Below are positions 12,227 to 48,158 of a DNA stretch of 64,000 nucleotides, one piece after another. The notes below the pieces were generated by a model. The model was given only the letters and a program-made list of their open reading frames with translations. It searched no databases and was not told the origin of the DNA. Made by a program: the position numbers and the translations under genes. Each line of letters opens with the position of its first letter. The first letter of the stretch is position 1. This stretch comes from a candidate division WOR-3 bacterium (GTDB lineage Bacteria > Hydrothermota > Hydrothermia > UBA1063 > CAJXJZ01), in NCBI GenBank assembly GCA_027038175.1, contig JALVYB010000098.1, forward strand, positions 7,606 through 71,605. The letters run 5' to 3'.

Positions 12227-12230
12227 TATA

Positions 12231-12259
12231 AAAGGCGGGCAGTGTCCCGCCTTTTTATT
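12231..12259 (+). terminator. rho-independent terminator after the peroxiredoxin gene
   Basis: Stem GGCGGG / CCCGCC with a CAGTGT loop, followed by TTTTTATTT. Confidence 0.65.
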
Positions 12260-12288
12260 TGTGTAAATTTAAAAAAGGAGGTTGAACA

Positions 12289-12657
12289 ATGTTGAAGGAT
12301 ACAATACAGACTGGAGACTGGAAGGGAGAAAAACACGTGCCTGTAATAGATGCACCTGATAAAGTGAAGGAAGGTGAGGTTGTCAAAATAGAGGTAAGTG
12401 TAGGCAAAGAAATTCCCCATCCAAATACGATGGAACACCATATTTCCTGGATAGAGCTTTACTTCCAGCCGGAAGGTGGAAAATTCCCGATTATGATAGG
12501 GCGTTACGGATTTATGTCACATGGTGAGTCTGAGACCTTCTCAGAACCCCATGTGGTCTCGTTTATCAAATTCTCAACATCAGGTACTCTCCATGCTCTC
12601 TCCTATTGTAATATTCACGGACTCTGGAGCTCTGAAAAGAAAATAGAGGTTGAATAG
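12289..12657 (+). CDS. sor: superoxide reductase (neelaredoxin/1Fe-SOR type)
   Basis: 122 aa containing GEKHVPVI, HPNTMEHHISWIEL and a C-terminal ...YCNIHGLW with Cys/His Fe ligands. No N-terminal desulforedoxin domain. Confidence 0.8.
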   Translation: MLKDTIQTGDWKGEKHVPVIDAPDKVKEGEVVKIEVSVGKEIPHPNTMEHHISWIELYFQPEGGKFPIMIGRYGFMSHGESETFSEPHVVSFIKFSTSGTLHALSYCNIHGLWSSEKKIEVE

Positions 12658-12667
12658 TAAATATTTT

Positions 12668-12690
12668 GGGGGCTTTTGCCCCCTGTTTTA
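12668..12690 (+). terminator. putative terminator after sor
   Basis: GGGGGC TTTT GCCCCC hairpin followed by TGTTTTATT. Confidence 0.5.
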
Positions 12691-12709
12691 TTAAGAGGAG
12701 GTATTTATT

Positions 12710-13198
12710 ATGGACCTTTCAGAATTTACCCTGAAAGATTTACTCAGAATTGCCATGAGTTCTGAGGTAGAGAGCAGGAAGGTGTACCTTTCTCTCAAGG
12801 AAAGAGTGGATAACCTGCTTTTGAAAGATAGATTCCAGTTTCTTGCTGATGAGGAAGAGAAGCATAGAAAATATATTGAAAGGATTTTTAATAAGAAATT
12901 CCCGAAAGAGGAGCCAGAACTCTCTCCTGGAATTACCACACCATTACCTGAGATTAAAGCAGATGATAATATGCCTATAAGCGAGATCCTTCAGAGTGCA
13001 ATGGATGCAGAAATGGCAGCAAGAGAGTTTTATCTACAGCTCTCAGAGAAATTTGAGGATGAAGAAATAAACAAGATGCTGAAAATATTTGCGGATATGG
13101 AACTCGGTCATTACAGGCTGCTCGAAGTTGAAAAGAACCTCGCGGAAAAGTTTGAGGATTACGAGTCCATGTGGCCTGAGTTTCATGTGGGACCATAA
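12710..13198 (+). CDS. rubrerythrin-like ferritin-fold diiron protein (no rubredoxin domain, no Cys)
   Basis: 162 aa with two E...ExxH half-sites (EVESRK...EEEKH and DAEMAARE...ELGH) typical of a four-helix diiron carboxylate bundle. Lacks the C-terminal CxxC...CxxC of true rubrerythrin. Confidence 0.65.
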   Translation: MDLSEFTLKDLLRIAMSSEVESRKVYLSLKERVDNLLLKDRFQFLADEEEKHRKYIERIFNKKFPKEEPELSPGITTPLPEIKADDNMPISEILQSAMDAEMAAREFYLQLSEKFEDEEINKMLKIFADMELGHYRLLEVEKNLAEKFEDYESMWPEFHVGP

Positions 13199-13210
13199 AG
13201 GGAGGGGATT

Positions 13211-13900
13211 ATGAATAAGAAGGCTCTCCATAAAATAAGTTATGGGCTTTACATAGTATCTTCAGAAAAGGATAGAAAATATAACGGTCAGATAGCAAAC
13301 ACAGTCTTTCAAATAACATCAGACCCTGTTATGATTGCAGTCTCTTTAAATAAACAGAATTTAACACATGAATACGTAACGCATTCTGGCAAATTCTCTG
13401 TTTCGGTTCTTGCACAGAATACACCGCTCAAGTTTATCGGGAAATTTGGTTTCAAATCCGGGCGGGATATAGATAAGTTTGATGGTGTGAATTACAGAAA
13501 TGGTGTGACCGGAGTTCCTATTGTACTGGATTACGCTGTAGCCTATCTTGAAGCAGAGGTTGTTTCATCCATAGATGTGGAAACCCACACAGTTTTCATA
13601 GGTAAGGTTGTAGATGCAGATATACTTCTTGAGGAACCTCCCATGACGTATGATTATTATCACAAGGTTAAGAGAGGGACGGCTCCAAAGACAGCGCCTA
13701 CCTATATTGAAGAAGTAAAGAAAGATGAGAAAAAGACATATAAAAAATACAGATGTAAAATCTGTGGTTATGTCTATGACCCTGAACTGGGGGACGCTTC
13801 ACAGAATATTAAGGCTGGAACACCATTTGAAAAGCTTCCCGATGACTGGACCTGTCCTGTCTGTGGGGCATCTAAAGACGATTTTATAGAGATAGATTAA
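13211..13900 (+). CDS. flavin-reductase-like domain fused to rubredoxin (high-molecular-weight rubredoxin type)
   Basis: 229 aa. The N-terminal ~160 aa form a flavin reductase (FMN-binding split barrel). The C-terminal end carries CKICGY...CPVCG, a rubredoxin CxxCG/CPxCG pair. Confidence 0.8.
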
Positions 13901-13916
13901 AAACTGGAGGATTGAA

Positions 13917-14078
13917 ATGAAGAAGTATAGATGTACTGTGTGCGGGTATATATACGACCCTGAGGAAGGGGATCAGGAAAACGGAATTGAACCTGGCACA
14001 CCATTTGAGAAACTCCCTGATGACTGGACCTGTCCTCTCTGTGGAGCGGATAAATCCCAGTTTGAGGAAATAGATTAG
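13917..14078 (+). CDS. rub: rubredoxin (53 aa; not in the supplied ORF track)
   Basis: Hand-translated as [53 protein letters not shown]. Classic CxxCG...CPxCG. A GGAGG RBS lies 8 nt upstream. Confidence 0.85.
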
Positions 14079-30569: not shown

Positions 30570-31325
30570 TTATATATCGAGTTTTTTAGAAATCAATTTA
30601 CATGTTTCCACTATATCTTCCTCTATTTTAAGTGTAGCGTAATTATCTAAAGCTGTTTTTCCCTTTGTTATTATAACAAGTGGAGTGCCCCTTGTTACTC
30701 CATACATTGGTATATAACCTGCTGGAAACACGGCGAGTGTTGAGCCAATAACAATGATAAGGTCAGCTTCCTTTGCTGCCTTTTGTGCCCTTAAAAGAGC
30801 ATCCTCTGGTAAGGGTTCTTTAAAGAATACGAAATCCGGTCTCAATACTCCTCCACATTCACATTTTGCTATTTCTTTTTTCTTAATGAATTCCATTGCA
30901 TACTCAAGTGGATATTTTTTATTACACCTTATACATGTAAATGTTTTCATGGAACCATGAAGGTTGGCTACTCTGGTAGAACCTGCTTTTTCATGGAGCA
31001 TGTCGATGTTTTGTGTGGCAATAAGATTGATTTTACCCATGTCTTCAAGTTTCTTTAAACAGAGATGAGCATCGTTGGGCTTTGCGTTTACGAGGATAGG
31101 AGCGAGTTCAAACATCAAATTGTAAAGAATGGAGGGGTCTTTGTAGAATACGTCTATATCAAACACTATTTCCGGATATTTTGAGTATATTCCAGTTCCA
31201 CTTCTGAAATCAGGTATACCACTTTTGGTGCTTATGCCAGCACCTGTGAGTACGAATATTTTTCTGGATTTTTTTATGAGGTCTACAAGTTGTGCTATTT
31301 TTAGTTCGAACTGGGAATTATTCAT
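30570..31325 (-). CDS. cobB: NAD-dependent protein deacylase (Sir2 family)
   Basis: 251 aa containing GAGISTKSGIPDFRS, a Zn ribbon (CIRC...CECGG) and a GSTLAVFPA motif. Confidence 0.85.
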   Translation of the reverse strand: MNNSQFELKIAQLVDLIKKSRKIFVLTGAGISTKSGIPDFRSGTGIYSKYPEIVFDIDVFYKDPSILYNLMFELAPILVNAKPNDAHLCLKKLEDMGKINLIATQNIDMLHEKAGSTRVANLHGSMKTFTCIRCNKKYPLEYAMEFIKKKEIAKCECGGVLRPDFVFFKEPLPEDALLRAQKAAKEADLIIVIGSTLAVFPAGYIPMYGVTRGTPLVIITKGKTALDNYATLKIEEDIVETCKLISKKLDI

Positions 31326-31340
31326 GCTTAATATTATATT

Positions 31341-31373
31341 ACTGGTTTATAAAACCAGCAAATTGTGTTATAA
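31341..31373 (+). promoter_or_regulatory. inverted repeat (CTGGTTT-ATAA-AACCAG) plus extended -10 (TGtTATAAT) in the cobB/LKR divergent intergenic region
   Basis: The palindrome spans 31341-31357. The TGTTATAAT element spans 31365-31373 and ends 8 nt before the LKR ATG, with no SD sequence in between, so the transcript may be leaderless. Confidence 0.3.
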
Positions 31374-31380
31374 TAATAGA

Positions 31381-32679
31381 ATGAGGCTTTTAGGTATAAG
31401 GAGGGAGACAAAAAATAAATGGGAGAGGCGAGTACCACTTGTGCCTCATGATGTGCATGAATTACGTAAGAGGCACAGAATAATGACTCTTATCGAGCCG
31501 TCAGAACTGAGAATTTTCCCGGAGGAAGAGTATGTAAAAAACGGAGCCAATGTGGTGGACAATCTGAGGGAGGCTCATTACATCTTTGGAGTGAAAGAAA
31601 TACCGCCGTCTTATTTCGAAGAAGGGAAAGTATACATGTTTTTCTCTCATACGATTAAGGGCCAGAAATACAATATGCCTATGCTCAAGAGAATGCTGGA
31701 ATTAAAAGATACTCTGATTGACTATGAACTTATCAAGGATGAAAATGGAAAGAGGCTTATTTTCTTCGGTTATCACGCAGGTCTTGCTGGTGCCATAGAT
31801 ACTCTCTGGGCATTTGGTCAGAGGCTTTTGAAGGAGGGGATAAAAACACCTTTTGCCCGTATTAAAAGGGCTTATGAGTATGGTAGAATGGATAAGGTAG
31901 AGATGCATCTTAAAGATATAGGGGAGCAGATAGAGGAAGAGGGCCTCCCTCCAGAGATATCTCCCCTTATAGTTGGCATTACCGGAAGGGGTAATGTTTC
32001 TCATGGCGTTCAAGATATAATAAAATTTTTCCCATATGAAGAGGTTGGTGCAAGGTGTATACCTGAGGTGCTAAAAGAAAAGAAGAACGATAGAATTTTT
32101 ATGGTGGTTTTTAAGCCCGAGGAGAGGGTCAAACACAGGTTTGGGGAAATATTTTCGAGAGAGGATTATTATGCCCATCCAGAGCAATATGTTTCAAGAA
32201 TGCCTGAGTATCTGCCACATCTAAACATACTGTTTAATGCCATTTACTGGGAGGAGCGTTTCCCCAAACTGGTAACTAAAGACCATATAAAGGAGCTCTT
32301 TGAAAAAGACAAGAATCCAAGGTTAAAGGTAATAGGGGATATAACCTGTGATATTGGAGGCTCAATAGAAATTACGGTGAAAGCAACAGACCCCGGAAAT
32401 CCATGTTTCGTATATAATCCTTACACAGACTCGATTGTTGATGGTGTTGAGGGTAATGGTGTTGTGGTTATGGCTGTGGATAATCTCCCGGCAGAATTAG
32501 CATACGATGCCTCAATATTTTTCAGTCATCAATTAAAGCCTTTTGTGCCATATATAGTAAGGGCAAACTATGATGTAAAGTTTAAAAGGCTCAACTTGCC
32601 CGATGAAATTAAAAATGCGGTGATAGTTTACAATGGCGAACTTACGCCGAATTATAAATATCTTGAAAAATACTTGTGA
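31381..32679 (+). CDS. lysine-ketoglutarate reductase-like / saccharopine dehydrogenase (L-lysine-forming), AlaDH-PNT fold
   Basis: Start re-placed at MRLLGIRRETKNKWERRVPLVPHDV, matching the conserved LKR N-terminus (human AASS begins ...VLAVRREDVNAWERRAPL). The supplied ORF began 52 codons upstream, inside the divergent region. Confidence 0.6.
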   Translation: MRLLGIRRETKNKWERRVPLVPHDVHELRKRHRIMTLIEPSELRIFPEEEYVKNGANVVDNLREAHYIFGVKEIPPSYFEEGKVYMFFSHTIKGQKYNMPMLKRMLELKDTLIDYELIKDENGKRLIFFGYHAGLAGAIDTLWAFGQRLLKEGIKTPFARIKRAYEYGRMDKVEMHLKDIGEQIEEEGLPPEISPLIVGITGRGNVSHGVQDIIKFFPYEEVGARCIPEVLKEKKNDRIFMVVFKPEERVKHRFGEIFSREDYYAHPEQYVSRMPEYLPHLNILFNAIYWEERFPKLVTKDHIKELFEKDKNPRLKVIGDITCDIGGSIEITVKATDPGNPCFVYNPYTDSIVDGVEGNGVVVMAVDNLPAELAYDASIFFSHQLKPFVPYIVRANYDVKFKRLNLPDEIKNAVIVYNGELTPNYKYLEKYL

Positions 32680-32697
32680 AAATAGGAGGCATTAAAA

Positions 32698-34002
32698 ATG
32701 GCTAAAAAAGTCCTGGTGCTCGGCGCCGGGATGGTAACAAAGCCCATGATAAGGTATTTTGCGGAGAAGACCGACTACTCCGTAATAGTGGCATCCAGAA
32801 CTCGCAAACATATAGATGAACTGATAAGTGGCTATGATAGAATAAAGGGTATAACATGGGAAGCACACAACTTAGATGGGCTCCGTGATCTCGTTAAAGA
32901 GGCTGATATAGTTCTGAGTTTCCTGCCGTATATATATCATATGGAGGTTGCCAGGCTGTGTGTGGAATATTCAAAACCCCTTGTTACAACCTCCTATGTA
33001 AAAGAGGAGATGGCAGCCCTTGATGAAGAGGCAAAAAAGAAAGGTATATTGCTTCTTAATGAGACAGGCCTTGATCCTGGCATAGACCATATGACTGCTC
33101 AGATGGTAATAGATACGGCTCACGAAAAAGGTGCAGAAGTTACGGAGTTCTATTCCTATTGCGGCGCTCTTCCTGCACCACAGTATGCCAACAATCCGCT
33201 TCATTATAAATTCTCCTGGAGCCCGGAGGGGGTGTTGAGAGCGGGGAATAATAGTGCAAAATATTTAAAAGAAGGAAAAATAGTTGAAGTTCCAAGTAAT
33301 GAACTCTTTTCCCACCGCTGGAGTGAGTATGTGGAGGGAGTGGGAGAACTTGAAGTGTATCCTAACAGGAACTCTCTTGTGTATATAGAGAAATATGGGA
33401 TAAGTGAGGTGCATACCATAATAAGGGGAACCTTTAGATATCCAGGGTGGTGTGAAACGCAGATTTATCTTAAGAAGTTACATCTTACAGAAGAGGGCAT
33501 AAAAGTACCTTCTGGGGTAAGAACGTGGAAAGAACTGATGGATGTTAAACTGAAAGAGGTGAATGAAGAGATTCCTTCTCACATTATAGACAAATTGAGG
33601 TGGCTTGGGCTTTTTGAGGGTAGAGAACTTCCATGTGTGGAGTGTACAATATTTGAAAATTTTGTTACCTTGCTTAAAGAGAAACTCTCTTATAGGGAAG
33701 GTGAAAAAGACCTTATCATTCTCAAGCACAGAATAGTGATTGAAGAAAAAGGAAAAAGAAAAGTACATACTGTAAAATTGGTGTCAGAAGGAGTGATTGG
33801 CAAAGAAACGGCTGTGGCCAAAACAGTTTCTCTTCCTGCAGCCATTGCAGCAGATTTAATTCTGAAAGGGGAAATAACCCTGAGCGGCGTATGGATTCCA
33901 ACTCATCCTGATATTTATACAAAGGTTTTGAGGGAACTTGAAAACGAAGGAATTAAGCCTGAATTGAAGGAGGAGGTACTTGAGAAGATAGGGGAGAAAT
34001 AA
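32698..34002 (+). CDS. saccharopine dehydrogenase (NADP+, L-glutamate-forming) family
   Basis: 434 aa with an N-terminal Rossmann motif (VLVLGAGMVTKPMIRYFA) and the Sacchrp_dh architecture. Immediately follows the LKR-like gene. Confidence 0.7.
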   Translation: MAKKVLVLGAGMVTKPMIRYFAEKTDYSVIVASRTRKHIDELISGYDRIKGITWEAHNLDGLRDLVKEADIVLSFLPYIYHMEVARLCVEYSKPLVTTSYVKEEMAALDEEAKKKGILLLNETGLDPGIDHMTAQMVIDTAHEKGAEVTEFYSYCGALPAPQYANNPLHYKFSWSPEGVLRAGNNSAKYLKEGKIVEVPSNELFSHRWSEYVEGVGELEVYPNRNSLVYIEKYGISEVHTIIRGTFRYPGWCETQIYLKKLHLTEEGIKVPSGVRTWKELMDVKLKEVNEEIPSHIIDKLRWLGLFEGRELPCVECTIFENFVTLLKEKLSYREGEKDLIILKHRIVIEEKGKRKVHTVKLVSEGVIGKETAVAKTVSLPAAIAADLILKGEITLSGVWIPTHPDIYTKVLRELENEGIKPELKEEVLEKIGEK

Positions 34003-34011
34003 GGAGATTTT

Positions 34012-36072
34012 ATGGAGTTTAGAATAATTAAGCATCCCATACTTAAGGTAGAGGAGAGGAAGGATATTGCATTTTATTTTAATGGTAAGAAACTCTATGG
34101 TAAAGAGGGCGATACTATCGCAGCAGCACTCTTTGCAAACGGTATAAAGATATTTGGACATCATCCAAAAGATAACTCTCCTCAGGGGATTTTCTGTGCT
34201 AACGGACAGTGTGACCAGTGCCGGGTAATAGCCAACGGCAAGGTGGTAAAGTCATGTATGGTGCTTCTTGAAGATGGGATGGATATAAGAAGTCTCGATG
34301 GTTTGCCAGAGTTGCCGGAAACCGGTAAAATTGGAGAGTTCGAGCCTATAAAAGAGTACAAGTATACTGTCCTGATTGCAGGTGGTGGGCCAGCAGGACT
34401 TGCAGCGGCTAAAGAATTGGGAAAACGTGGGGTTAGAACGTTAATAGTGGACGATAAACATAAACTCGGTGGAAAGCTTGTATTGCAAACTCACAAATTC
34501 TTTGGTTCGGTTGAAGCATGTTATGCTGGTACAAGGGGTACAGAGATTGCAGAGATTATGGAGAAGGACATTAGGGAACTTGATAGTGTCGATGTCTGGC
34601 TTGGTTCCACTGTTATATGGCCTTTTTCGGATGGGAAAGTAGGGATTTTAAAAGACGGGAAGGAATACGTCCTTGTAGAACCGGATATTTTGCTTGTAGC
34701 AACAGGTGCGAGAGAGCGTTTCCTTGCTTTTCCAGGAAATACACTTCCAGGTGTGTATGGAGCAGGTGCACTTCAAACTCTTATAAATAGAGATCTTGTT
34801 CGGCCTTCAGAGAAAATTTTTATTATAGGTGGTGGAAATGTAGGACTTATTGCGGCCTATCACGCACTTCAGGCCGGGATTCAGGTTGTTGGGCTCTGCG
34901 AAATAATGCCTGAGGTCGGTGGATATGTAGTACATAAAGAAAAACTGCTGAAATTAGGTGTACCTGTGTATACCTCTCATACAGTACTCAAGGCAGAAGG
35001 CAAGGAGCATGTGGAGAGAGTCGTCATTGCACGGGTCGATGAGAATTTTAAACCCATAAAGGGTACAGAAAAGACCATTGAGTGTGACACAGTACTTGTG
35101 GCTGTGGGACTTGAGCCAATCAATGAATTTGCAGAAAGGGCAAAGGCCTTTGGGTATAAAGTTTTTGTTGCAGGTGACGCGGAAGAGATTGCAGAGGCAT
35201 CAAGTGCTATTTTCTCCGGACGTATTAGAGGTCTTGAGATACTAAAAGAACTTGGGCTTTATGAAGGTGAAATCCCCGAGGAGTTTTACAAAACTCAGGA
35301 AATTTTAAAATCAAGACCAGGTAAAAAATTCTATGAGGTTAAACTTCCTGAGAAGAAAGAGGGTGTTTACCCAGTTATTAACTGTGTTCAGGAAATTCCA
35401 TGTAATCCCTGTGAAGTTGTCTGTCCAAAAGATGCCATTAAAATAGGTGAGCCAATTACCAATGTTCCAGAGTATGTTGGTGGCTGCATAGGGTGTGAAA
35501 TCTGTGTTGCGAAATGTCCCGGCCTTGCCATCACTCTTGTTGACTGGAGAAAAGAAGACCCTATTGTCACTGTTCCCTTCGAGTTTGAGCCTGATGAGTA
35601 CTTCAAGGTAGGGGATATGGTGGAGGTTACAGATAGATTTGGTAACCTCCTTGGAAAGGCAGAGGTTATAAGGATAAGAAGAAGAACGGTTTCAAAGGGA
35701 ACACATATAGTAAAACTGAAAGCAAGCAGGGGTATAGCAGAAAAGATAGCGGGGATAAGGATTCAAACTCCACCGGAACCCATTGAGCTGCAATTTGATG
35801 AGAGTGAATATATTCCAGATGATGCAATTATATGCAGGTGTGAAAGAGTGAAGGCAGGAGAGATAAGAAAACTTATAAGAGAGGGTGTGAGGGACATGAA
35901 CGAAATCAAAGCCCTAACCCGTGCCGGTATGGGTGCCTGTGGTGGGAAAACCTGCACATCGTTAATAAAACGAATATTCCGTGAAGAGGGAGTTACTGAT
36001 TTTGAATCCTTTACTAAAAGACCTCTATTTATAGAAGTCCCTGTAAAAGACCTTTCCGGACTGAAGGAGTAA
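34012..36072 (+). CDS. opine/sarcosine-oxidase alpha-like (OoxA/HcnB/PDH-alpha-like) FAD/NAD(P)-binding oxidoreductase with 2Fe-2S, ferredoxin-like and BFD-like Cys motifs
   Basis: 686 aa. N-terminal 2Fe-2S-like domain (CANGQCDQCRV...KSC). FAD/NAD Rossmann motifs (VLIAGGGPAGLAAA; IIGGGNVGLIAA). Two 4Fe-4S-like CxxCxxCP motifs (CNPCEVVCP; CIGCEICVAKCPG). C-terminal BFD-like CRCERV...GACGGKTC. Confidence 0.6.
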   Translation: MEFRIIKHPILKVEERKDIAFYFNGKKLYGKEGDTIAAALFANGIKIFGHHPKDNSPQGIFCANGQCDQCRVIANGKVVKSCMVLLEDGMDIRSLDGLPELPETGKIGEFEPIKEYKYTVLIAGGGPAGLAAAKELGKRGVRTLIVDDKHKLGGKLVLQTHKFFGSVEACYAGTRGTEIAEIMEKDIRELDSVDVWLGSTVIWPFSDGKVGILKDGKEYVLVEPDILLVATGARERFLAFPGNTLPGVYGAGALQTLINRDLVRPSEKIFIIGGGNVGLIAAYHALQAGIQVVGLCEIMPEVGGYVVHKEKLLKLGVPVYTSHTVLKAEGKEHVERVVIARVDENFKPIKGTEKTIECDTVLVAVGLEPINEFAERAKAFGYKVFVAGDAEEIAEASSAIFSGRIRGLEILKELGLYEGEIPEEFYKTQEILKSRPGKKFYEVKLPEKKEGVYPVINCVQEIPCNPCEVVCPKDAIKIGEPITNVPEYVGGCIGCEICVAKCPGLAITLVDWRKEDPIVTVPFEFEPDEYFKVGDMVEVTDRFGNLLGKAEVIRIRRRTVSKGTHIVKLKASRGIAEKIAGIRIQTPPEPIELQFDESEYIPDDAIICRCERVKAGEIRKLIREGVRDMNEIKALTRAGMGACGGKTCTSLIKRIFREEGVTDFESFTKRPLFIEVPVKDLSGLKE

Positions 36073-36075
36073 AGG

Positions 36076-37221
36076 ATGAAGAAGTATGATTTTATAATTA
36101 TTGGAGCAGGGAGCGTAGGAGTGCCTCTCTCCTACTACCTTTCAAAGAGCGGTGCAAAGGTACTTGTGCTTGAAAGAAAAAAGAGTGTTGGTCAGGGGTC
36201 AAATAAGGCTGCAATCGGAGGAATAAGGGCTACCCACTCCAATCCTGCGAAAATAATTGTGGGTAAAAAGAGCCTTGAGATTTTTGAAAAATGGCAAAAA
36301 GAGCATGAGATAGAATGGTATAAGGGAGGGTACTCCTTTGTTGCCTATGATGAAGAGATTCACAAAAGCCTTAAAAACCTCGTGAGTTTTCAAAAGAGTC
36401 TCGGTCTTGATATAGAGTATCTTGAAAGGGATGCACTTGTGGAAAAAATACCTTCTATAAATCCTGAGGGTCTTCTGGGAGGCACCTATTCTCCCGGGGA
36501 TGGTTCTGCCTCTCCTCTTCTGACAGTTAACTCTTTTTACAGAGAAGCCGTTAAACTTGGTGCAGAGTTTGTCTTTGATAGCGAAGTTGAAGGATTTGAT
36601 ATATTTGATGGGAGTATAAAAGAGGTCAAAACTGCAGAAAATACGTATAGAGGGGATATAGTGGTTAATGCAGCAGGTGGATGGGCAAACAACTTGCAGA
36701 ATCTCGCAGGAGAAAGTATCCCTGTAAAACCAGATGTGCATGAGGCTGGTATCACAGAACCTGTGAAACATTTTATAAACCCCATGATAGTGGATATAAG
36801 GAAAACTTCAGATTCTGCCAATTTCTATTTTTATCAACACAAGACAGGTCAGGTAATTTTCTGTCTTACTCCAAAGGAACCAAGATGGGGATTTAACATA
36901 AATGAAACGTCAACATTTCTGCCAATAGCAACCAGAAGAATGATTGAACTTGTTCCAAGACTTAAGAACATCAGGGTAAGGAGAACGTGGGCTGGTATCT
37001 ATCCGATGACGCCGGATGGTAACCCTGTGGTGGGATTCAGTAAAAAAGTAAAAAATCTTTTTATACTTGGTGGTATGTGTGGACAGGGCTTTATGCTGGG
37101 ACCGGGCCTTGGATATTACCTCTCCTCTTATTTTGGAGGTGAAAAGAGCGAGGAGATAGATGTTATATTGAAAGAGTTTAATCCCTATCGTTCCTTTGAA
37201 AGCACGGAAGTACTCAAATAA
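36076..37221 (+). CDS. FAD-dependent oxidoreductase (DAO family; sarcosine-oxidase beta/OoxB/PDH-beta-like)
   Basis: 381 aa with an N-terminal DFIIIGAGSVG dinucleotide fold. DAO-family length and motifs. Confidence 0.7.
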   Translation: MKKYDFIIIGAGSVGVPLSYYLSKSGAKVLVLERKKSVGQGSNKAAIGGIRATHSNPAKIIVGKKSLEIFEKWQKEHEIEWYKGGYSFVAYDEEIHKSLKNLVSFQKSLGLDIEYLERDALVEKIPSINPEGLLGGTYSPGDGSASPLLTVNSFYREAVKLGAEFVFDSEVEGFDIFDGSIKEVKTAENTYRGDIVVNAAGGWANNLQNLAGESIPVKPDVHEAGITEPVKHFINPMIVDIRKTSDSANFYFYQHKTGQVIFCLTPKEPRWGFNINETSTFLPIATRRMIELVPRLKNIRVRRTWAGIYPMTPDGNPVVGFSKKVKNLFILGGMCGQGFMLGPGLGYYLSSYFGGEKSEEIDVILKEFNPYRSFESTEVLK

Positions 37222-38384
37222 TGAAGGTTCTTGTTGCTACTACCTCCTATCCCCGAAAGAAAGGGGATACAGCAGGAATATTTGTACACAAACTCGCTAA
37301 ATCCATTAAAGACAGAGGAGCCGAAGTTTTCGTTATGGCCCCCTCATGCGGAATGGATGATGAAGAAAGAGAGATTGAAGGCATAAAGGTCCACAGGTTC
37401 AGGTATTTTTTTATAAAAAAATGGGAAATACTGTTTTGCAGAGGTGGTGGAGCCGTTCCAGCACTCACAAAAAAACCATATTTACATTTGCTGCTCCCTT
37501 TCGCACTTTTGTCTTATACCATTTCTATTTTAAAAAGAGCAAAAGATGCAGATGTTATACAGGCTGAGTGGTCTATATCGGGATTTGCATCGATACCTTC
37601 AAAAATTTTACTCAGAAAAAAGGTTGTGGTGTCACTTCTTGGTAGTGATATGATGAAGGCGAAAGGTTCACCTGTTTATAGATGGATTACCAGAATTACT
37701 TTTAAATTCGCTGATGCTATAACTTCTGTAAGTAAAAGAATGGTTGATGAGGCAATTTCAATAGGCGCAGACCCTGAAAGGGTGAGGTTTATCCCCTATG
37801 GAACAGATGAAAAGTTTCTCAATATCACTCCAGCGGAGTTCAAAAAGCCTTACAACCTTTTGTATGTGGGTAATCTCATTCCTCTTAAAAGAGTTCATGT
37901 CGCAATTAAGGCTCTTTCAGAACTCCCTGAAGATTTCAGGTTATACATAGTGGGAGATGGACCACAGAGAAAAGAACTAAAAGTACTTGCAAACACTCTT
38001 GGGGTTGGGCACAGGGTTTATTTTGAGGGAAGGGTTCCTCATGAAGAAATTCCGTCATATCTTTCGAGGTCTCATGCTTTACTCCTTCTAAGTGAATCTG
38101 AAGGAAGACCCAATGTGGTGCTTGAGGCGCTTGCAGCAGGTGTTCCAGTTGTTGCCTCGGATATCCCGGGCAATAGAGAACTCGTTGTCAATTCAGAAAA
38201 TGGTATCCTTGTGCCTGTAGATGACCATAAGAGTGTCGTAGGGGCCATAATCTCTCTTTTTCAAGATGAAGAAAAATGGAAGGCAATGAGTAAGAGGGCC
38301 AAGGAATTCGTAAGAAGAGAGAGGCTTTTATGGAAATTTACAGCAGAGGACCACATAAACCTATATTCTGAACTTTTACGTTAA
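37221..38384 (+). CDS. glycosyltransferase family 4
   Basis: 387 aa. C-terminal GT4 signature (SESEGRPNVVLEALAAGVPVVASDIPGNRELV). Confidence 0.75.
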   Translation: MKVLVATTSYPRKKGDTAGIFVHKLAKSIKDRGAEVFVMAPSCGMDDEEREIEGIKVHRFRYFFIKKWEILFCRGGGAVPALTKKPYLHLLLPFALLSYTISILKRAKDADVIQAEWSISGFASIPSKILLRKKVVVSLLGSDMMKAKGSPVYRWITRITFKFADAITSVSKRMVDEAISIGADPERVRFIPYGTDEKFLNITPAEFKKPYNLLYVGNLIPLKRVHVAIKALSELPEDFRLYIVGDGPQRKELKVLANTLGVGHRVYFEGRVPHEEIPSYLSRSHALLLLSESEGRPNVVLEALAAGVPVVASDIPGNRELVVNSENGILVPVDDHKSVVGAIISLFQDEEKWKAMSKRAKEFVRRERLLWKFTAEDHINLYSELLR

Positions 38385-39373
38385 AAATCGTTTCCGTTTT
38401 CAGGAAGTTGCAATTCTTCCAGAACTTCTTCTTCCTCTTTTGATGGAAATAGATACCATTTTGAGCCCAAAATAAAGCCCACGAGACTGCCAAATATGTA
38501 TCTTAAGGCATGGGTTATAAAAGCATAGGTAAGTCCAAGTTCTTTTGGCAGTCCGTATGCGTAAAATGCAAGGAGTGTCGCATATTCAAATACGCCAAAA
38601 TACCCAGGACCAGAGGGTATGGAGACACCTATATTCACGGCTACCATTACAAATAAAGCAAGCGACATGGGGCCTCTATATCCTATCGCTTTAAGGAAAT
38701 AAAAATAACTGTAAAATTCTACTGTCCAGGATAAAATAGAGAGTCCAACAATGTAGACTGTGTTCTTAGCATCTCCAAGGAAATGGAGTGCGGAGATGAT
38801 TTTTCTAACCTGTTTTGCTATTTTTGAGTTACAGTTCTTGTATCTGTGCTCATGTACTATATAAATTACAAAAAATATAAGCACTGCTAAAAGAATTCCA
38901 CCTGTCAGGTACAGGATGGCTTCTTTCATGGACTCTGGAACTTCTTTAAATAACCATCTCCCGAGAAACGCCCCGAGTAGTATAACAAGACCATCAAGTA
39001 TTCTTTCTATAATAAGAGAACTAAGGGCTGTTGTTACAGGTACATTTTCTCTGTGCTTCATCGCCACAGAGCGCCAGAGGTCACCAAGCCTTGCAGGGAG
39101 AATATTGTTGCCAAGAATATCTACGAATAAAGCAGCAATGCATGACATCACGGATACTTTTTTCACAGGTTTTAGCATTAATTTCCATCTAAAACCTCTT
39201 ATAGCGTTGGCTACGAGAAATAAAAGCACACCCCAGAAGGTAAAGTATAGATTGAAGTTTTTTAAAGTGGCCCAGACGTCCTTAAAGTCAATTTCCTTAA
39301 AGGTGAAGTATAAAAACACGCCGCTTATCAGAAAACCACCTATCTTTATAATATTTTTCTTTTTTACCTTCAT
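38381..39373 (-). CDS. UPF0104 / lysylphosphatidylglycerol-synthase-TM-like flippase-family membrane protein
   Basis: 330 aa with about 8 TM helices. The N-terminal GFLISGVFLYFTFKEIDFKDV...RGFRWKLML pattern is typical of the family. Confidence 0.55.
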   Translation of the reverse strand: MKVKKKNIIKIGGFLISGVFLYFTFKEIDFKDVWATLKNFNLYFTFWGVLLFLVANAIRGFRWKLMLKPVKKVSVMSCIAALFVDILGNNILPARLGDLWRSVAMKHRENVPVTTALSSLIIERILDGLVILLGAFLGRWLFKEVPESMKEAILYLTGGILLAVLIFFVIYIVHEHRYKNCNSKIAKQVRKIISALHFLGDAKNTVYIVGLSILSWTVEFYSYFYFLKAIGYRGPMSLALFVMVAVNIGVSIPSGPGYFGVFEYATLLAFYAYGLPKELGLTYAFITHALRYIFGSLVGFILGSKWYLFPSKEEEEVLEELQLPENGNDF

Positions 39374-44818: not shown

Positions 44819-47250
44819 AATTTCACTGTTGCTGTAAGTTGCCATCTTGCCGGTTGTTTTCGCAAAAATACCCCATTTAATGTGATGATGTTAAGAAGGG
44901 TGTTAACTTTGAACTTATATGAGATGCCTACATTGAGATAGGTGGAGAAGGGTATCTTTGTACTGCTTGTATATGAGGTGGTTACGTTCGCAGTGTATTT
45001 ACTTATGGATAGGTTGAAGCGATTTTTAAAGGTATAAAAGTTTTTTTCAAATGGCTGGAAACTCCCATACTGAATTTCTGTTGCGTTGTGCACTTTTTTT
45101 CTCTTAAGCAAAAGAGATATCCCGTATACTTTCTTTTCAAAACCTAATAGGTCATCTTTCTGATGTTCGTAACTTGCTCCTGGACTCATGATTTTGTCAG
45201 TGAATGTAAATAAGTGGAGTTGTACATGCCAGAGGCCAACTTTATTCATATCAGTTAATATATTCTGTGATGTGAAAGAGGAACCGAAACGAGTCCCATA
45301 TATAAATGGAGATGAAAAGGATGTACTCATGTTTAATCTCTTTTCGTTTTCTGTATTCTCGATTTTAAGATTTGCGGTGATGGAGTACCTTGCGTGAGTG
45401 AAATAAAATTCAGTTGATGTAATGTTTTTATAGGTTAAATCTCCTGAGATTGCCGGGATTATTATCCTTGTAAACTCACCAAATTCAGAAGGCAGCATTC
45501 TGCCAGATGCAGAGTCATACATAAAGGCCCCGGAGGGTGTTTTGATATAACGTTCTATATATAAGTTGTCCATATCAAGCATGCGCCCAAGTTGGAAATT
45601 TAAATGTCCCGCATTAAATCTCAGAGTGTTTAACATATTATAGGTAAAAAATGAAGGGGTTTTCATTATTTCAAAGTGGAAGTCACTTAATTTGCTATGA
45701 ACATTGTGCTTTATAAATATTCCATAGTTTATTTTCACAGAATCTTTGCCTGCGAAAGCGTATATATAAGGAAAATTGAACGAGTTTACCTCAAGGCCAA
45801 TAGTTTTTTCGTGAAACCTGTTATAATAAAGCGAAAGGGAAAGGTAAGCGTGTTTGTACAAAAGAATGGTCTCTTTAAGTTTTTTCTCCCCCGTTAATCT
45901 CAGTTTTATAGAGTTAAAACTTATGGTAGTATTCCAGTGAGGTAGACTGTCCATGGTGCTGTGCAAAGTAAGGTATTTTCTGTCGCTTCCTATGGTAAGG
46001 TCTGCGAACTTTTCATTCTCCAGTTTCTCTCTGTACGATTGTAGAGACTGATTATAGGTGGGGTAGGGTAGATACACGGTTCCATCTGTTTTTCTCATGC
46101 CAGCCTCAACTTGAAAGAGTTTTTTTCGTATTCCTGCAGAAATTTCTATCCCTTTTCCCCTTTCTGTTATCTCTGAATTGCCTTTTTCAGATTGAGTATA
46201 GGTTGTTTTCAGAAATATGTCCTTTCCCCCTTTTATCGAAATTTTATTGAAATTAATTGAAGGTGAAACATTTTCTCTCTCAGGTGTATAGTGTCCACTG
46301 CCTTTTCCTACAAAAACATAGTAATCACCCTCCTTTACATATTCATAGGCCCCATTTATTGTATCCAGTTGGAAATACACCATGTAATGCCCTTTCCCCT
46401 TTCCCACATACACAAAAATACTGTCCTGTTTCTCGTAATCTCCCCCGCCTTGCGGATAAAATACGCCTCCCAGTGAATCGGGTATCATCTGTTTTACTCT
46501 GTTTTCCCTGTAAACCATTGCATTTGCCTTTAAAAATTTCTTTGAGAGACCTCCCTCTAAATTATAAACCATTAAAGGGGAAAAAGGGGTGTGATACTGG
46601 TAGGTAACAAGGAGTCTGTGCTCTATTCCTGAATCTTTTATGTAAAGGAATAGTATACCACGAGTATAATCGAGCCTGTACTGGGTTTTGTCAAGGATTT
46701 TCCCGTCTATGAATACATTCTCGCTCCCTTCGATGATTGGGATCTCTTTCCGGGTTATTTTTATGGGAATAGAGTAAGGAGGTTTTACAATAGTATCAAA
46801 CGTTTCCATGACGCCATTTTTCTCACCAACTCCACCTCTTATTGTGAATGTGCTGTGTGTGAAACCGAAATACCCTCCATCGAGTTTATTACCATAAAGT
46901 GAATATCTTCCAAGTAAAAAGGAATCCCTTTTCCTTTTAATGGTCAAATAGGCTGTATTTGCGTCTTTTAAACTTATGGTGTAAACATCATTTAAAGGTG
47001 AGAATTTGTTATCGTAGAGAAAGCCGCTTATTACCCATCCTCCTTGAGTCCTGCCACTTATATGAATGTTTGTTGACTGAAATATATCACCGTTTTTGCC
47101 TGTTCCCTGTGCATAAAATGCTTTTTCTCCCTCTACCAGAATATCCGTGTTAAAATGTGCAGTGTCTGCTCTGAGCGTTTTCGAAGAATCTGGAGAATTT
47201 ACTATTCTCGGGTTCTCAAACCATATTCCAAAAAGCAACCATAAAATCAT
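44815..47250 (-). CDS. hypothetical large outer-membrane beta-barrel-like protein (C-terminal ...TATVKF)
   Basis: 811 aa, rich in alternating aromatic/hydrophilic beta-strand-like segments, with a terminal Phe. No recognisable catalytic motif. Confidence 0.3.
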
Positions 47251-48158
47251 TTTCTACGGAATCTAATAAGCAACATGGCTCCTAAAACACTTACCAGAAA
47301 TATAGAGACGAAGTATAAAAGTGAGGTTGCCATTGCTGCTTCTTTCCCAATGTACTTACTGAACAGGAATACGAATCCTCCTTCTCGCATTCCAAATCCA
47401 GATACTGTCACAGGAATCATGCTCAAAAAGTTAATGAAAGGTACAAATAGTATGGTCCTTATAAGTCCCGCATGTTCTCTTATGGAGATAGTTATGAAAT
47501 AAACATCCAGAGAGTATAAAAGCTGTATCAAAAAAGAATAAAACAGTGCCATGGTTATAATTTTCTTACTTCTGAATGAGTGTAGAAACTCATAGATATG
47601 GTAGAGATGTTCTCCCATTGGCAGTTTTTGCAGAATAGAAAAGACAAAGGCGGTTCTTTTTGAAAAGAGCATGAAAAAAAATAGTATTTGAAGTAAAAGT
47701 GCAACAATCACTATCTTTGCGTATTTTCCTGTATCCTGAAGGCTGTACAGGAGTCCTAAAAACACATAAATATTTATTGCAAGGAAACCAAACACCCTGT
47801 CCATAAAGGTGGATGAAAGTTTCTCTTTTATTTTGTCTTTCCCTAAGAACATAAGTCTTGCCACGTCAAGCCCACCAGAAGGGAGAAAATTCGCAAGAAA
47901 CAGGGATTTTAGGTAGTGTGAAAACAGAGTTAAAAGCGGTACATTAATACCAAGATTTGATAAAAATAGTCTCCATCTCATACTTGATAAGAATATACCT
48001 GCAAGATACATAAAAGATGCAAGAGCAAAATACCAGAGATTTACGCGAGAAAAGATAGTTATAAGTCCTTTAACATTGACTTTTTTAAACAGAATATAGA
48101 GTAGGATGATAGTAACGACAATTTTGCCAGTTTCAAGTAATATCTTTTTGGTCTTCAT
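47247..48158 (-). CDS. UPF0104 / LPG-synthase-TM-like flippase-family membrane protein (paralogue of 38381..39373)
   Basis: 303 aa. Same N-terminal pattern as its paralogue (...LLYILFKKVNVKGL...MRWRLFL) and about 8 TM helices. Confidence 0.5.
   Translation of the reverse strand: MKTKKILLETGKIVVTIILLYILFKKVNVKGLITIFSRVNLWYFALASFMYLAGIFLSSMRWRLFLSNLGINVPLLTLFSHYLKSLFLANFLPSGGLDVARLMFLGKDKIKEKLSSTFMDRVFGFLAINIYVFLGLLYSLQDTGKYAKIVIVALLLQILFFFMLFSKRTAFVFSILQKLPMGEHLYHIYEFLHSFRSKKIITMALFYSFLIQLLYSLDVYFITISIREHAGLIRTILFVPFINFLSMIPVTVSGFGMREGGFVFLFSKYIGKEAAMATSLLYFVSIFLVSVLGAMLLIRFRRK

What the first reader, a model, noticed from the sequence alone, without database searches (positions are those of the whole stretch)
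31381..37221. Saccharopine-pathway enzymes (LKR + SDH) in one operon with a heteromeric opine/sarcosine-oxidase-like flavoenzyme
Bacterial lysine catabolism through saccharopine is uncommon. Here LKR-like and SDH-like genes are followed, with gaps of 9 and 3 nt, by a multi-cofactor alpha subunit and a DAO-family beta subunit. This pairing resembles the Thermococcales L-proline/opine dehydrogenase complexes and Agrobacterium OoxAB. It suggests a saccharopine- or opine-type secondary-amine oxidation route, such as lysine to saccharopine to oxidative cleavage, which would be unusual for an anaerobe. A GT4 gene is co-transcribed.
Basis: partly seen in the sequence, partly recalled or inferred. Interest (0 to 1): 0.55.

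Follow-up and report, generated by a model that had tools for sequence, protein, structure and literature searches.

The report
Lysine-saccharopine genes beside proline-dehydrogenase-like flavoenzyme
Two ordinary and separately widespread enzyme gene pairs, one that breaks lysine down via saccharopine and one that resembles an archaeal proline dehydrogenase, happen to sit in one gene string in a single lineage of hot-vent bacteria, and nothing so far shows that they work together.

Summary
Five co-directional genes lie at 31381-38384 with gaps of 18, 9, 3 and -1 nt. They encode a true LKR (not an alanine dehydrogenase), an SDH, a 686-aa Fe-S/flavin alpha subunit, a DAO-family beta subunit and a GT4.

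- Beta's nearest solved relative by a wide margin is the beta subunit of Pyrococcus horikoshii L-proline dehydrogenase.
- Alpha-beta is a self-contained two-gene module in 80 genomes from many anaerobic phyla. None of them has an LKR within 10 kb.
- LKR-SDH is a separate two-gene module in 80 metagenome loci. None of them has alpha or beta nearby. Its recurrent partners there are lysine 6-transaminase and lysine 2,3-aminomutase.
- The five-gene string occurs only in the window's own WOR-3-related clade, where every flanking gene is syntenic too. The nearest outgroups lack it.
- Gaps of 20 nt or less between unrelated genes are the norm in this genome.

A chemical link stays open. SDH yields aminoadipate semialdehyde/P6C, which is also the expected product of pipecolate oxidation, and archaeal alpha4beta4 proline dehydrogenase is reported to oxidise L-pipecolate. 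Interest is modest.

The parts
31346..31374 (+). Promoter-like site (TTTATA, 17 nt, TG-TATAAT) ending 7 nt before the LKR start. No Shine-Dalgarno sequence follows, so the transcript may be leaderless.
   Evidence: consensus match only, and the scan's hit rate was about chance
31381..32679 (+). Monofunctional lysine-ketoglutarate reductase (LKR; saccharopine dehydrogenase, L-lysine-forming type), 432 aa
   Evidence: AlaDh_PNT_N and AlaDh_PNT_C domains. Human AASS LKR domain E 1.4e-73, residues 3-429 aligned. K72/H90 match yeast K77/H96, and R17/R125 match yeast R18/R131; all four are invariant in A2. The alaDH model scores 25.9 against a cut-off of 391.85.
32698..34002 (+). Monofunctional saccharopine dehydrogenase (L-glutamate-forming) / saccharopine reductase type, 434 aa
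   Evidence: Sacchrp_dh_NADP and Sacchrp_dh_C domains. AASS SDH domain E 1.1e-75; Magnaporthe saccharopine reductase E 4.9e-73; both full length. A homologue lies directly downstream of LKR in 63 of 80 metagenome loci.
34012..36072 (+). Alpha subunit, 686 aa: SoxA/PH1363-like FAD/NAD(H) core fused to three Fe-S modules
34060..34293 (+). Alpha residues 17-94: Fer2_4 [2Fe-2S] domain with C62-X4-C67-X2-C70-X11-C82
   Evidence: Pfam hit 5.7e-23. The motif is present and the cysteines are invariant in A1. The motif is as defined in PMC4575208.
34366..35142 (+). Alpha residues 119-377: two dinucleotide-binding folds (GGGPAG at 124, GGGNVG at 273). The second is followed by invariant E297, which suggests NAD(H) rather than NADP(H); this is inference.
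   Evidence: Pyr_redox_2 3.2e-24; motifs; invariant columns
35383..35520 (+). Alpha residues 458-503: 2x[4Fe-4S] ferredoxin-type insert (CX5CX2CX3CP and CX2CX2CX3CP)
   Evidence: Fer4_7 28.6 bits against a cut-off of 27. All eight cysteines are invariant.
35827..35985 (+). Alpha residues 606-658: BFD-like [2Fe-2S] domain (C608-X-C610-X32-C643-X4-C648)
   Evidence: Fer2_BFD 3.4e-12 and 7.8e-13; cysteines invariant
36076..37221 (+). Beta subunit, 381 aa: DAO-family catalytic flavoprotein with an N-terminal GAGSVG FAD motif and the R-T-W (Arg-X-Trp) FMN motif at 303-305
   Evidence: DAO 9.8e-60. PH1364 (1y56_B) E 2.1e-56 over residues 3-372, 31.7% identity in the MAFFT alignment. Motifs are as defined in PMC4575208.
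37221..38384 (+). GT4 glycosyltransferase. Its start overlaps the beta stop by 1 nt, so it is probably co-transcribed. It does not accompany alpha-beta outside the window clade.

Best explanation
The string joins two independent, self-contained enzyme modules plus an unrelated glycosyltransferase.

Module 1 is LKR plus SDH. It is the prokaryotic, unfused form of the saccharopine pathway. LKR condenses L-lysine with 2-oxoglutarate to saccharopine, probably with NADPH. SDH cleaves saccharopine to glutamate and 2-aminoadipate 6-semialdehyde, which cyclises to delta1-piperideine-6-carboxylate (P6C).

Module 2 is alpha plus beta. It is the local copy of a two-gene flavo-iron-sulfur amine dehydrogenase that is widespread in anaerobic bacteria, and its closest characterised relative is the Thermococcales L-proline dehydrogenase. 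Beta (FAD) most likely oxidises a cyclic secondary amine such as L-proline to the imine. Electrons would then pass through an interface FMN and the Fe-S clusters of alpha to alpha's FAD, and on to NAD+ and/or ferredoxin.

Shown: the family assignments, the motifs, the distribution, and the lack of conserved linkage. Inferred: the substrates, the cofactor preference, the electron path, and the direction of flux.

The juxtaposition arose once, in the window's WOR-3-related hydrothermal clade. It reflects the dense gene packing of this genome rather than a demonstrated pathway.
For: Module identities.

Alpha-beta is a stand-alone unit.
- About 70 of 80 genome loci from Chloroflexota, Acidobacteriota, Aminicenantes, WOR-3/Hydrothermia, Cloacimonadota, Bipolaricaulota and others have beta directly after alpha.
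- None has an LKR. Three have only distant (23-28% identity) Sacchrp_dh paralogues on the opposite strand.
- No other neighbour is conserved.

LKR-SDH is a stand-alone unit.
- SDH lies directly downstream of LKR in 63 of 80 metagenome loci. By my count, only three of the loci that have room downstream lack it.
- Alpha or beta is present in 0 of 80.
- The recurrent partners are L-lysine 6-transaminase (TIGR03251, 648 bits against a cut-off of 520.8) and lysine 2,3-aminomutase.

The five-gene string is seen only in close relatives, with alpha at 78-92% identity or LKR at 80-90%.
- Three of these were read, and all their flanking genes are syntenic too.
- Outgroups at 70-71% (L084, L174) and 67% (L002-L004) have alpha-beta without LKR/SDH.
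- Another WOR-3 contig has LKR-SDH after uvrA, without alpha-beta.
- One 126.7-kb contig carries both an alpha and an LKR homologue, about 53 kb apart.

Gene packing: 29 of 36 other co-directional gaps in the window are 20 nt or less, with a median near 0. Clearly unrelated pairs are included (T9SS protein/PolX 3 nt, GcvP2/UDP-glucose dehydrogenase -20, FabD/NUDIX -4).

The window's beta keeps 107 of the 112 columns that are at least 95% conserved in unlinked beta subunits, and alpha keeps 219 of 231.
Against: The two modules converge on one metabolite class. SDH makes AASA/P6C, and archaeal alpha4beta4 L-proline dehydrogenase is reported to oxidise L-pipecolate as well (PMC4141209, citing Monaghan et al. 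2007). By analogy with proline to P5C, the product would be P6C.

The window-clade beta carries clade-specific changes at positions that are otherwise nearly invariant: RTWRG to RTWAG, a two-residue deletion, and P268E. These changes coincide exactly with the LKR-SDH linkage.

Agrobacterium pTiBo542 places an NAD(P)-dependent opine dehydrogenase gene directly upstream of the gamma-alpha-beta genes of a flavin opine dehydrogenase. That is an architectural precedent for coupling.

The string has translational-coupling-like junctions.

No enzyme here or in the bacterial alpha-beta family has been assayed, so 'proline-type' rests on about 32% identity to PH1364.
Confidence: 0.58

Rival explanations
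1. The modules are functionally coupled through P6C and pipecolate. LKR and SDH turn lysine into AASA/P6C. The alpha-beta complex then either reduces P6C to L-pipecolate with NADH and/or reduced ferredoxin, or feeds external L-pipecolate into the same AASA pool by oxidising it. In the window clade the generic imino-acid dehydrogenase would have been recruited to the six-membered-ring homologue.
For: The product of SDH is the expected product of pipecolate oxidation. Archaeal alpha4beta4 L-ProDH is reported to be active on L-pipecolate (PMC4141209). Proline enzymes (P5CR) convert P6C to pipecolate in the saccharopine pathway (PMC7253579). Clade-specific substitutions in beta coincide with the linkage, and three of them restore the PH1364 state. 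The junctions are tight and Shine-Dalgarno-linked.
Against: The arrangement arose once, in one clade, so the correlation rests on a single event. The number of deviations at conserved columns (4-8) is matched by other divergent lineages that lack the linkage (9 in Cloacimonadota). No linkage appears in 160 other loci. No AASA dehydrogenase, P5CR or other lysine or pipecolate gene lies in the 64-kb window. Tight spacing is the norm in this genome.
Confidence: 0.22
2. Alpha-beta would be a flavin-dependent saccharopine (opine-type) dehydrogenase that cleaves the secondary amine made by LKR, in parallel to or in place of the NAD-dependent SDH.
For: Saccharopine is chemically an opine. Beta and alpha belong to the same superfamily as OdhAB/OoxAB (PMC4575208). 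pTiBo542 and P. putida place NAD(P)-dependent opine dehydrogenase genes next to flavin opine dehydrogenase genes (PMC4575208).
Against: Beta is much closer to proline dehydrogenase beta (195 bits) than to the pTiBo542 opine dehydrogenase beta (113 bits, 28.7% identity). The reaction would duplicate that of the SDH encoded immediately upstream. Orthologues at 55-67% identity across phyla lack any LKR or SDH neighbour. LKR-SDH modules elsewhere never carry alpha-beta.
Confidence: 0.07
3. LKR and SDH run in the biosynthetic direction, as fungal Lys9 and Lys1 do (AASA to saccharopine to lysine), and alpha-beta is unrelated.
For: SDH is about as similar to fungal saccharopine reductase (E 4.9e-73) as to the catabolic AASS SDH domain. 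Both reactions are reversible (established enzymology).
Against: LKR is far closer to the catabolic AASS LKR domain (251 bits, full length) than to yeast Lys1 (56 bits, N-lobe only). At the position of human S266/R267 the protein has an invariant Lys rather than the yeast Asp, which fits NADP(H) use like the catabolic enzyme (inference and PMC9490328). The partner genes in other loci are lysine-consuming enzymes (LAT, AblA). No aminoadipate reductase lies in the window.
Confidence: 0.08

Closest known systems
Human/animal/plant AASS (bifunctional LKR/SDH) and monofunctional bacterial LKR and SDH (Serrano et al. 2012, as cited in PMC9490328)
   Same: Both halves align over their full length (E 1e-73 and 1e-75). 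The catalytic Lys/His pair and the substrate-binding arginines of the LKR half are conserved. The gene order, LKR then SDH, mirrors the domain order of the fusion.
   Different: Here they are two separate genes 18 nt apart. There is no interdomain region (Pfam Saccharop_dh_N). The host is a strictly anaerobic, thermophile-like bacterium related to WOR-3. No AASA dehydrogenase lies nearby.
Pyrococcus horikoshii L-proline dehydrogenase PDH1 (PH1363 alpha / PH1364 beta, PDB 1Y56) and the related Thermococcales complexes
   Same: Beta is the best solved match by a wide margin (195 bits, full length). It has the R-X-W FMN motif and the N-terminal FAD motif. Alpha shares the N-terminal 2Fe-2S-type module and the FAD/nucleotide core. 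The alpha and beta genes are adjacent.
   Different: Alpha is 686 aa, against 493 aa for PH1363. It carries an extra 2x[4Fe-4S] ferredoxin insert and a C-terminal BFD-type [2Fe-2S] domain, so one polypeptide holds modules that are separate small subunits in related complexes. Identity to PH1364 is only about 32%. The substrate is untested.
Flavin-containing opine dehydrogenases OdhABC / OoxAB / NoxAB (PMC4575208; pTiBo542 locus L172)
   Same: The superfamily, cofactor logic (FAD, FMN, [2Fe-2S]) and motifs are the same. In both, an NAD(P)-dependent secondary-amine dehydrogenase gene sits next to the flavoenzyme genes.
   Different: Beta is more distant (28.7% identity, 113 bits). The gamma subunit is a separate gene there and is fused here. 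The neighbouring NAD(P) enzyme belongs to a different fold family (octopine/nopaline dehydrogenase rather than AlaDh_PNT and Sacchrp_dh). That system is aerobic and soil- or plant-associated.
Heterotetrameric sarcosine oxidase SoxABGD
   Same: The N-terminal half of alpha aligns with SoxA residues 20-387 (E 1.5e-22; fold search E about 1e-23). Beta aligns with SoxB (E about 4e-24).
   Different: Alpha lacks the C-terminal folate-binding (GcvT-like) half of SoxA. There are no gamma or delta genes. Real Fe-S clusters are predicted. Scores are far below the TIGR01372 and TIGR01373 cut-offs (153 against 1164, and 114 against 529).

Membership tests
Lysine-ketoglutarate reductase / saccharopine dehydrogenase (L-lysine-forming), AlaDh_PNT fold | AlaDh_PNT N- and C-domains, with full-length similarity to a characterised LKR | tested here: met
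   Pfam 3.1e-23 and 1.6e-09. AASS LKR domain: 251 bits, query 3-429 against chain 25-463.
Lysine-ketoglutarate reductase / saccharopine dehydrogenase (L-lysine-forming), AlaDh_PNT fold | Catalytic acid-base pair (yeast Lys1 K77 and H96) and the arginines equivalent to yeast R18 and R131 | tested here: met
   K72, H90, R17 and R125 align to them and are invariant in 12 homologues. The K77/H96 role comes from Kumar et al. 2012, as cited in PMC9490328. The role of the arginines is from my own knowledge.
Lysine-ketoglutarate reductase / saccharopine dehydrogenase (L-lysine-forming), AlaDh_PNT fold | Is not an alanine dehydrogenase | tested here: met
   TIGR00518 alaDH scores 25.9 bits against a cut-off of 391.85, and matches the N-terminal 120 residues only.
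Lysine-ketoglutarate reductase / saccharopine dehydrogenase (L-lysine-forming), AlaDh_PNT fold | Catalyses lysine + 2-oxoglutarate + NAD(P)H to saccharopine | not testable with these tools
   Needs an enzyme assay. Indirect support: homologous LKR-SDH pairs sit next to lysine 6-transaminase and lysine 2,3-aminomutase.
Saccharopine dehydrogenase (L-glutamate-forming) / saccharopine reductase | Sacchrp_dh_NADP and Sacchrp_dh_C domains, with full-length similarity to characterised enzymes | tested here: met
   Pfam 5.2e-22 and 9.3e-76. 5l78 1.1e-75, 1e5l 4.9e-73, 2axq 1e-71.
Heterooligomeric flavin-containing amine dehydrogenases (archaeal L-ProDH, OpnDH, D-HypDH, HCN synthase; PMC4575208) | DAO-family beta with an N-terminal ADP-binding motif and the Arg-X-Trp FMN motif | tested here: met
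   GAGSVG at residue 10; R303-T-W305; DAO 9.8e-60.
Heterooligomeric flavin-containing amine dehydrogenases (archaeal L-ProDH, OpnDH, D-HypDH, HCN synthase; PMC4575208) | Alpha with ADP-binding motifs, and the [2Fe-2S] motif C-X4-C-X2-C-X11-12-C (a separate gamma subunit, or the N-terminus of alpha as in L-ProDH) | tested here: met
   GGGPAG at 124 and GGGNVG at 273; C62-X4-C67-X2-C70-X11-C82; invariant in A1.
Heterooligomeric flavin-containing amine dehydrogenases (archaeal L-ProDH, OpnDH, D-HypDH, HCN synthase; PMC4575208) | Second cluster motif C-X-C-X15-20-C-X4-C in alpha | tested here: inconclusive
   C608-X-C610-X32-C643-X4-C648 is present within a Pfam Fer2_BFD domain. The spacer is 32 residues rather than 15-20.
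Heterooligomeric flavin-containing amine dehydrogenases (archaeal L-ProDH, OpnDH, D-HypDH, HCN synthase; PMC4575208) | The subunit genes lie in tandem | tested here: met
   The alpha-beta gap is 3 nt here. Beta lies directly downstream of alpha in about 70 of 80 related genome loci.
Archaeal L-proline dehydrogenase subfamily (substrate L-proline) | Closest characterised relative among family members; activity on L-proline | tested here: inconclusive
   PH1364 is the top solved hit (195 bits against at most 89.5 for the others). Identity is only 31.7%, and other characterised beta subunits (HcnC, LhpB, PDH2 beta) could not be compared. Activity is not testable here.
Opine oxidase / opine dehydrogenase type 1 (OoxAB, NoxAB, OdhABC) | Beta groups with OoxB/NoxB/OdhB rather than with other subfamilies | tested here: not met
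   The best Agrobacterium Ti-plasmid match is 28.7% identical, 113 bits, E 1e-24. That is weaker than PH1364.
Heterotetrameric sarcosine oxidase | SoxA with a C-terminal folate-binding half; gamma and delta subunits; scores above the TIGR01372 and TIGR01373 cut-offs | tested here: not met
   Alpha matches only SoxA 20-387. TIGR01372: 153 bits against 1164. TIGR01373: 114 bits against 529. There are no small-subunit genes in the string.
   0 of 80 alpha loci have an LKR. 0 of 80 LKR loci have alpha or beta. The nearest outgroups are unlinked. No Rosetta-stone fusion of LKR with a DAO or Pyr_redox domain appears among the 10 longer homologues examined.

The most novel reading that the evidence does not exclude
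In the window's clade the generic alpha-beta flavo-iron-sulfur dehydrogenase has been recruited to the lysine branch. It would act as an NADH- and/or ferredoxin-linked P6C/L-pipecolate oxidoreductase, or less likely as a saccharopine dehydrogenase. A strict anaerobe would then have a lysine to saccharopine to P6C to pipecolate route, or the reverse entry from pipecolate. Alpha's extra 2x[4Fe-4S] module might allow ferredoxin coupling, possibly of the flavin-based bifurcation or confurcation kind. The clade-specific RTWRG-to-RTWAG change and the two-residue deletion in beta would be the specificity switch.
Probability: 0.2. Interest if true: 0.6.

Novelty: new variant of a known kind. Interest (0 to 1): 0.33.

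Why it matters
If the modules are independent, as I think most likely, the finding is mainly a caution. In densely packed genomes, gaps of 3-9 nt do not indicate a pathway.

Two by-products deserve attention.
- A highly conserved alpha-beta flavo-Fe-S amine dehydrogenase (55-67% identity across phyla) is present in hundreds of anaerobic genomes and has never been assayed. How strict anaerobes dispose of the fairly high-potential electrons from proline-type oxidations is unresolved. Alpha's domain set (2Fe-2S, FAD/NAD, 2x[4Fe-4S], BFD) suggests NAD/ferredoxin coupling.
- Unfused LKR-SDH pairs, often in one operon with lysine 6-transaminase or lysine 2,3-aminomutase, are common in anoxic sediments. 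The saccharopine route may therefore be a regular part of anaerobic lysine metabolism.

If the coupled reading is true, it would define a new anaerobic lysine/pipecolate route.

Tried and rejected
- **Alanine dehydrogenase for gene 1.** Rejected.
- **Sarcosine oxidase or HdrA/GltD-type roles for alpha.** Only sub-threshold partial hits.
- **Conserved neighbours of alpha-beta.** I clustered all ORFs within 7-8 kb of alpha in the 80 related genome loci plus the window's own locus. Beyond beta, only spurious antisense ORFs and Anaerolineae-specific synteny came up.
- **Neofunctionalisation test.** The window-clade beta deviates at 4-8 near-invariant columns, against a median of 1. Other divergent lineages reach 9, so the result is inconclusive.
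- **Rosetta-stone fusions.** The longer LKR homologues are LKR-SDH fusions or oddities (O-methyltransferase, DUF5698/DUF2179). None is fused to a DAO or Pyr_redox domain.
- **AlphaFold model of alpha.** From a 12-sequence alignment it reached only pLDDT 65 and pTM 0.52. The fold search still ranked SoxA and PH1363 first (E about 1e-23), followed by NfnABC/StnABC subunits at low TM-scores. I use it as weak support only. Residue 306 of beta could not be mapped on a structure, because no coordinates are available, and a beta alignment built from fetched loci did not appear eligible for structure prediction under the tool's stated input limits (not attempted).
- **Rfam.** No RNA families in the window.
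- **Papers.** Neshich et al. 2013 and Monaghan et al. 2007 are not held. Their content is cited only through PMC7253579 and PMC4141209.
- **Literature on the bacterial module.** Searches found no paper that characterises a bacterial fused alpha-beta or links WOR-3 to saccharopine.

Full report
**1. Observation**

Five co-directional ORFs occupy 31381-38384 on the + strand.
- LKR-like: 31381-32679. The ATG at 31381 is the start that matches all homologues; the mechanical ORF begins at an upstream TTG.
- SDH-like: 32698-34002.
- Alpha: 34012-36072.
- Beta: 36076-37221.
- GT4: 37221-38384.

The gaps are 18, 9, 3 and -1 nt. Shine-Dalgarno-like sequences precede SDH, alpha and beta. A TTTATA-17-TATAAT site ends 7 nt before the LKR ATG, and no convincing terminator lies inside the string. 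That scan's hit rate was near chance.

**2. Source**

The sequence matches a 92.5-kb hydrothermal-metagenome scaffold (ENA ERZ23491667). The nearest named relatives of alpha are 'Candidatus Hydrothermia' and candidate division WOR-3 MAGs, at 67% identity. The window also encodes rubredoxin, rubrerythrin, desulfoferrodoxin and peroxiredoxins, which are hallmarks of a strict anaerobe. It holds no other lysine, proline or pipecolate gene.

**3. LKR and SDH**

Gene 1 is a true LKR.
- It aligns over residues 3-429 with the human AASS LKR domain (E 1.4e-73).
- It aligns only through the N-lobe with yeast Lys1 (E 3e-14).
- The yeast catalytic pair K77/H96 (Kumar et al. 2012, cited in PMC9490328) corresponds to K72/H90. 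Yeast R18/R131 correspond to R17/R125. All four are invariant in an alignment of 12 homologues.
- The alanine dehydrogenase model scores 25.9 bits against a cut-off of 391.85.
- At the position of human S266/R267, which explains NADPH use (PMC9490328), the protein has an invariant Lys245. This fits NADP(H) use, but it is an inference.

Gene 2 aligns over its full length with the AASS SDH domain (1.1e-75) and with fungal saccharopine reductases (4.9e-73 and 1e-71).

**4. Alpha and beta**

Beta is a DAO-family flavoprotein.
- Its best solved relative by far is PH1364, the beta subunit of P. horikoshii L-proline dehydrogenase (E 2.1e-56, 195 bits, full length).
- The next hits are glycine oxidase and SoxB, at 89 bits or less.
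- It carries the N-terminal FAD motif and the Arg-X-Trp FMN motif that define the heterooligomeric flavin amine dehydrogenases (PMC4575208).

Alpha combines several modules in one polypeptide.
- A Fer2_4 [2Fe-2S] module (C-X4-C-X2-C-X11-C).
- Two dinucleotide-binding folds.
- A 2x[4Fe-4S] insert (Fer4_7 above its cut-off).
- A BFD-type [2Fe-2S] domain.
- All 16 cluster cysteines are invariant.

Alpha matches SoxA only in SoxA's N-terminal half, and it also matches PH1363. A low-confidence model (pLDDT 65) still retrieves SoxA and PH1363 first. The Ti-plasmid flavin opine dehydrogenase beta subunit is more distant (28.7% identity, 113 bits).

**5. Is the linkage conserved?**

I fetched 80 genome loci around alpha homologues (55-67% identity; Chloroflexota, Acidobacteriota, Aminicenantes, WOR-3, Cloacimonadota, Bipolaricaulota, Thermodesulfobacteriota and others).
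- Beta directly follows alpha in about 70 of them.
- LKR is present in none.
- Only three have distant (23-28%) Sacchrp_dh paralogues, on the other strand.
- No other neighbour is conserved.

I fetched 80 metagenome loci around LKR homologues (48-56% identity).
- SDH directly follows LKR in 63. By my count, only three of the loci that have room downstream lack it.
- Alpha or beta is present in none.
- The recurrent partners of LKR-SDH are L-lysine 6-transaminase (an equivalog-level hit) and lysine 2,3-aminomutase. This supports the lysine assignment independently.

The five-gene string is found only in close relatives (alpha at 78-92% identity or LKR at 80-90%). In the three that were read, every flanking gene is syntenic as well, so the conservation says nothing about function.
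- The next relatives (alpha 70-71%) have alpha-beta in other contexts. One lies next to an rnf cluster; the other is preceded by a non-coding stretch.
- Another WOR-3 contig has LKR-SDH after uvrA.
- One 126.7-kb contig carries both an alpha and an LKR homologue about 53 kb apart.

**6. Weight of the tight spacing**

From the gene calls covering the window, 29 of 36 other co-directional pairs have gaps of 20 nt or less, and the median is about 0. These include plainly unrelated pairs: T9SS protein/PolX (3 nt), GcvP2/UDP-glucose dehydrogenase (-20), FabD/NUDIX (-4) and RecO/LPG-synthase-like (-26). Gaps of 9 and 3 nt are therefore uninformative in this genome.

**7. What keeps a functional link alive**

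- SDH produces AASA/P6C. The archaeal alpha4beta4 proline dehydrogenase is reported to oxidise L-pipecolate too (PMC4141209). P5C reductase is known to make pipecolate from P6C in the saccharopine pathway (PMC7253579). The two modules therefore meet at one metabolite.
- The linked clade's beta subunits differ from all 69 unlinked ones at four near-invariant sites: RTWRG to RTWAG, a two-residue deletion, an E169 shift and P268E. Three of these match PH1364. This is a single evolutionary event, and other divergent lineages deviate as much. It is a hint, not evidence.
- pTiBo542 places an NAD(P) opine dehydrogenase gene directly upstream of the flavin opine dehydrogenase genes, which is a precedent for such pairings.

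**8. Verdict**

- Best explanation (0.58): two independent modules were juxtaposed once in a compact genome. LKR-SDH runs lysine to saccharopine to AASA/P6C plus glutamate. Alpha-beta is a proline-type imino-acid dehydrogenase that wires electrons through FMN and Fe-S clusters to NAD+ and/or ferredoxin.
- Coupling through P6C and pipecolate: 0.22.
- Biosynthetic direction for LKR-SDH: 0.08.
- Saccharopine oxidation by alpha-beta: 0.07.

**9. How common are the modules?**

Neither module is rare in anoxic metagenomes.
- Nearly all of the 8,000 scored candidates matched alpha at E of 1e-20 or better.
- 7,256 matched LKR at E of 1e-30 or better.
- At 50% clustering, the LKR family has only 645 clusters at E of 1e-30 or better. 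These include the eukaryotic fusions.

**10. Novelty**

The gene products are new members of known families. Alpha's fused architecture, and the string itself, are variants of known kinds. Interest is modest.

Noticed in passing
L096, L102, L123, L128, L142, L149 (LAT about 100 nt after SDH); L114, L133 (further away); L116, L135, L141, L144, L158 (AblA): In metagenomic loci, unfused LKR-SDH pairs are often followed on the same strand by an L-lysine 6-transaminase (TIGR03251, 648 bits), or flanked by lysine 2,3-aminomutase. LKR+SDH and LAT give the same net reaction, so it is unexplained why both sit in one operon. On paper the three enzymes close a transhydrogenase-like cycle.
   Followed up: partly
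window 36076-37221 (beta residues 76-77, 169, 268, 306); L082, L086, L173 compared with L084, L174 and L002-L004: Only the beta subunits linked to LKR-SDH read RTWAG rather than RTWRG (69 of 69 unlinked ones). They also lack two residues and carry P268E. P. horikoshii PH1364 shares the Ala and the gap. This may be a specificity change or plain lineage drift.
   Followed up: partly
L172 (pTiBo542, NC_010929.1 16175-25179): An NAD/NADP octopine/nopaline-dehydrogenase-family gene lies directly upstream of the (2Fe-2S) gamma, alpha and beta genes of a flavin opine dehydrogenase, next to an ABC transporter.
   Followed up: no
L084 5955-15104: In the nearest unlinked relative (alpha 71% identical), alpha-beta lies beside a complete rnfCDGEAB-type cluster on the opposite strand. 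This is of possible interest for ferredoxin/NAD coupling of the complex.
   Followed up: no
L005; L175-L177 (contig Ga0209276_100166 and relatives): Some Anaerolineae-type contigs have an alpha homologue with no adjacent beta gene, next to an oligopeptide (Opp/Dpp-type) ABC transporter.
   Followed up: no
window 11570-14078 (+): A cluster of peroxiredoxin, desulfoferrodoxin, rubrerythrin, flavin-reductase-rubredoxin fusion and rubredoxin genes: an anaerobe-type oxidative-stress set.
   Followed up: no
window 31346-31381: The LKR start codon has a TG-extended TATAAT ending 7 nt upstream and no Shine-Dalgarno sequence, so the first gene of the string may be translated from a leaderless mRNA.
   Followed up: no
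window 30570-31325 (-): A SIR2-family NAD-dependent protein-lysine deacylase gene is transcribed divergently from LKR, only 55 nt away, and is syntenic across the clade. This is probably coincidental.
   Followed up: no
window 37221-39373: The GT4 glycosyltransferase converges on, and overlaps by 4 nt, a gene of the LPG_synthase_TM family. A second LPG_synthase_TM gene lies at 47247-48158. These are probably membrane glycolipid functions unrelated to the amine enzymes.
   Followed up: no
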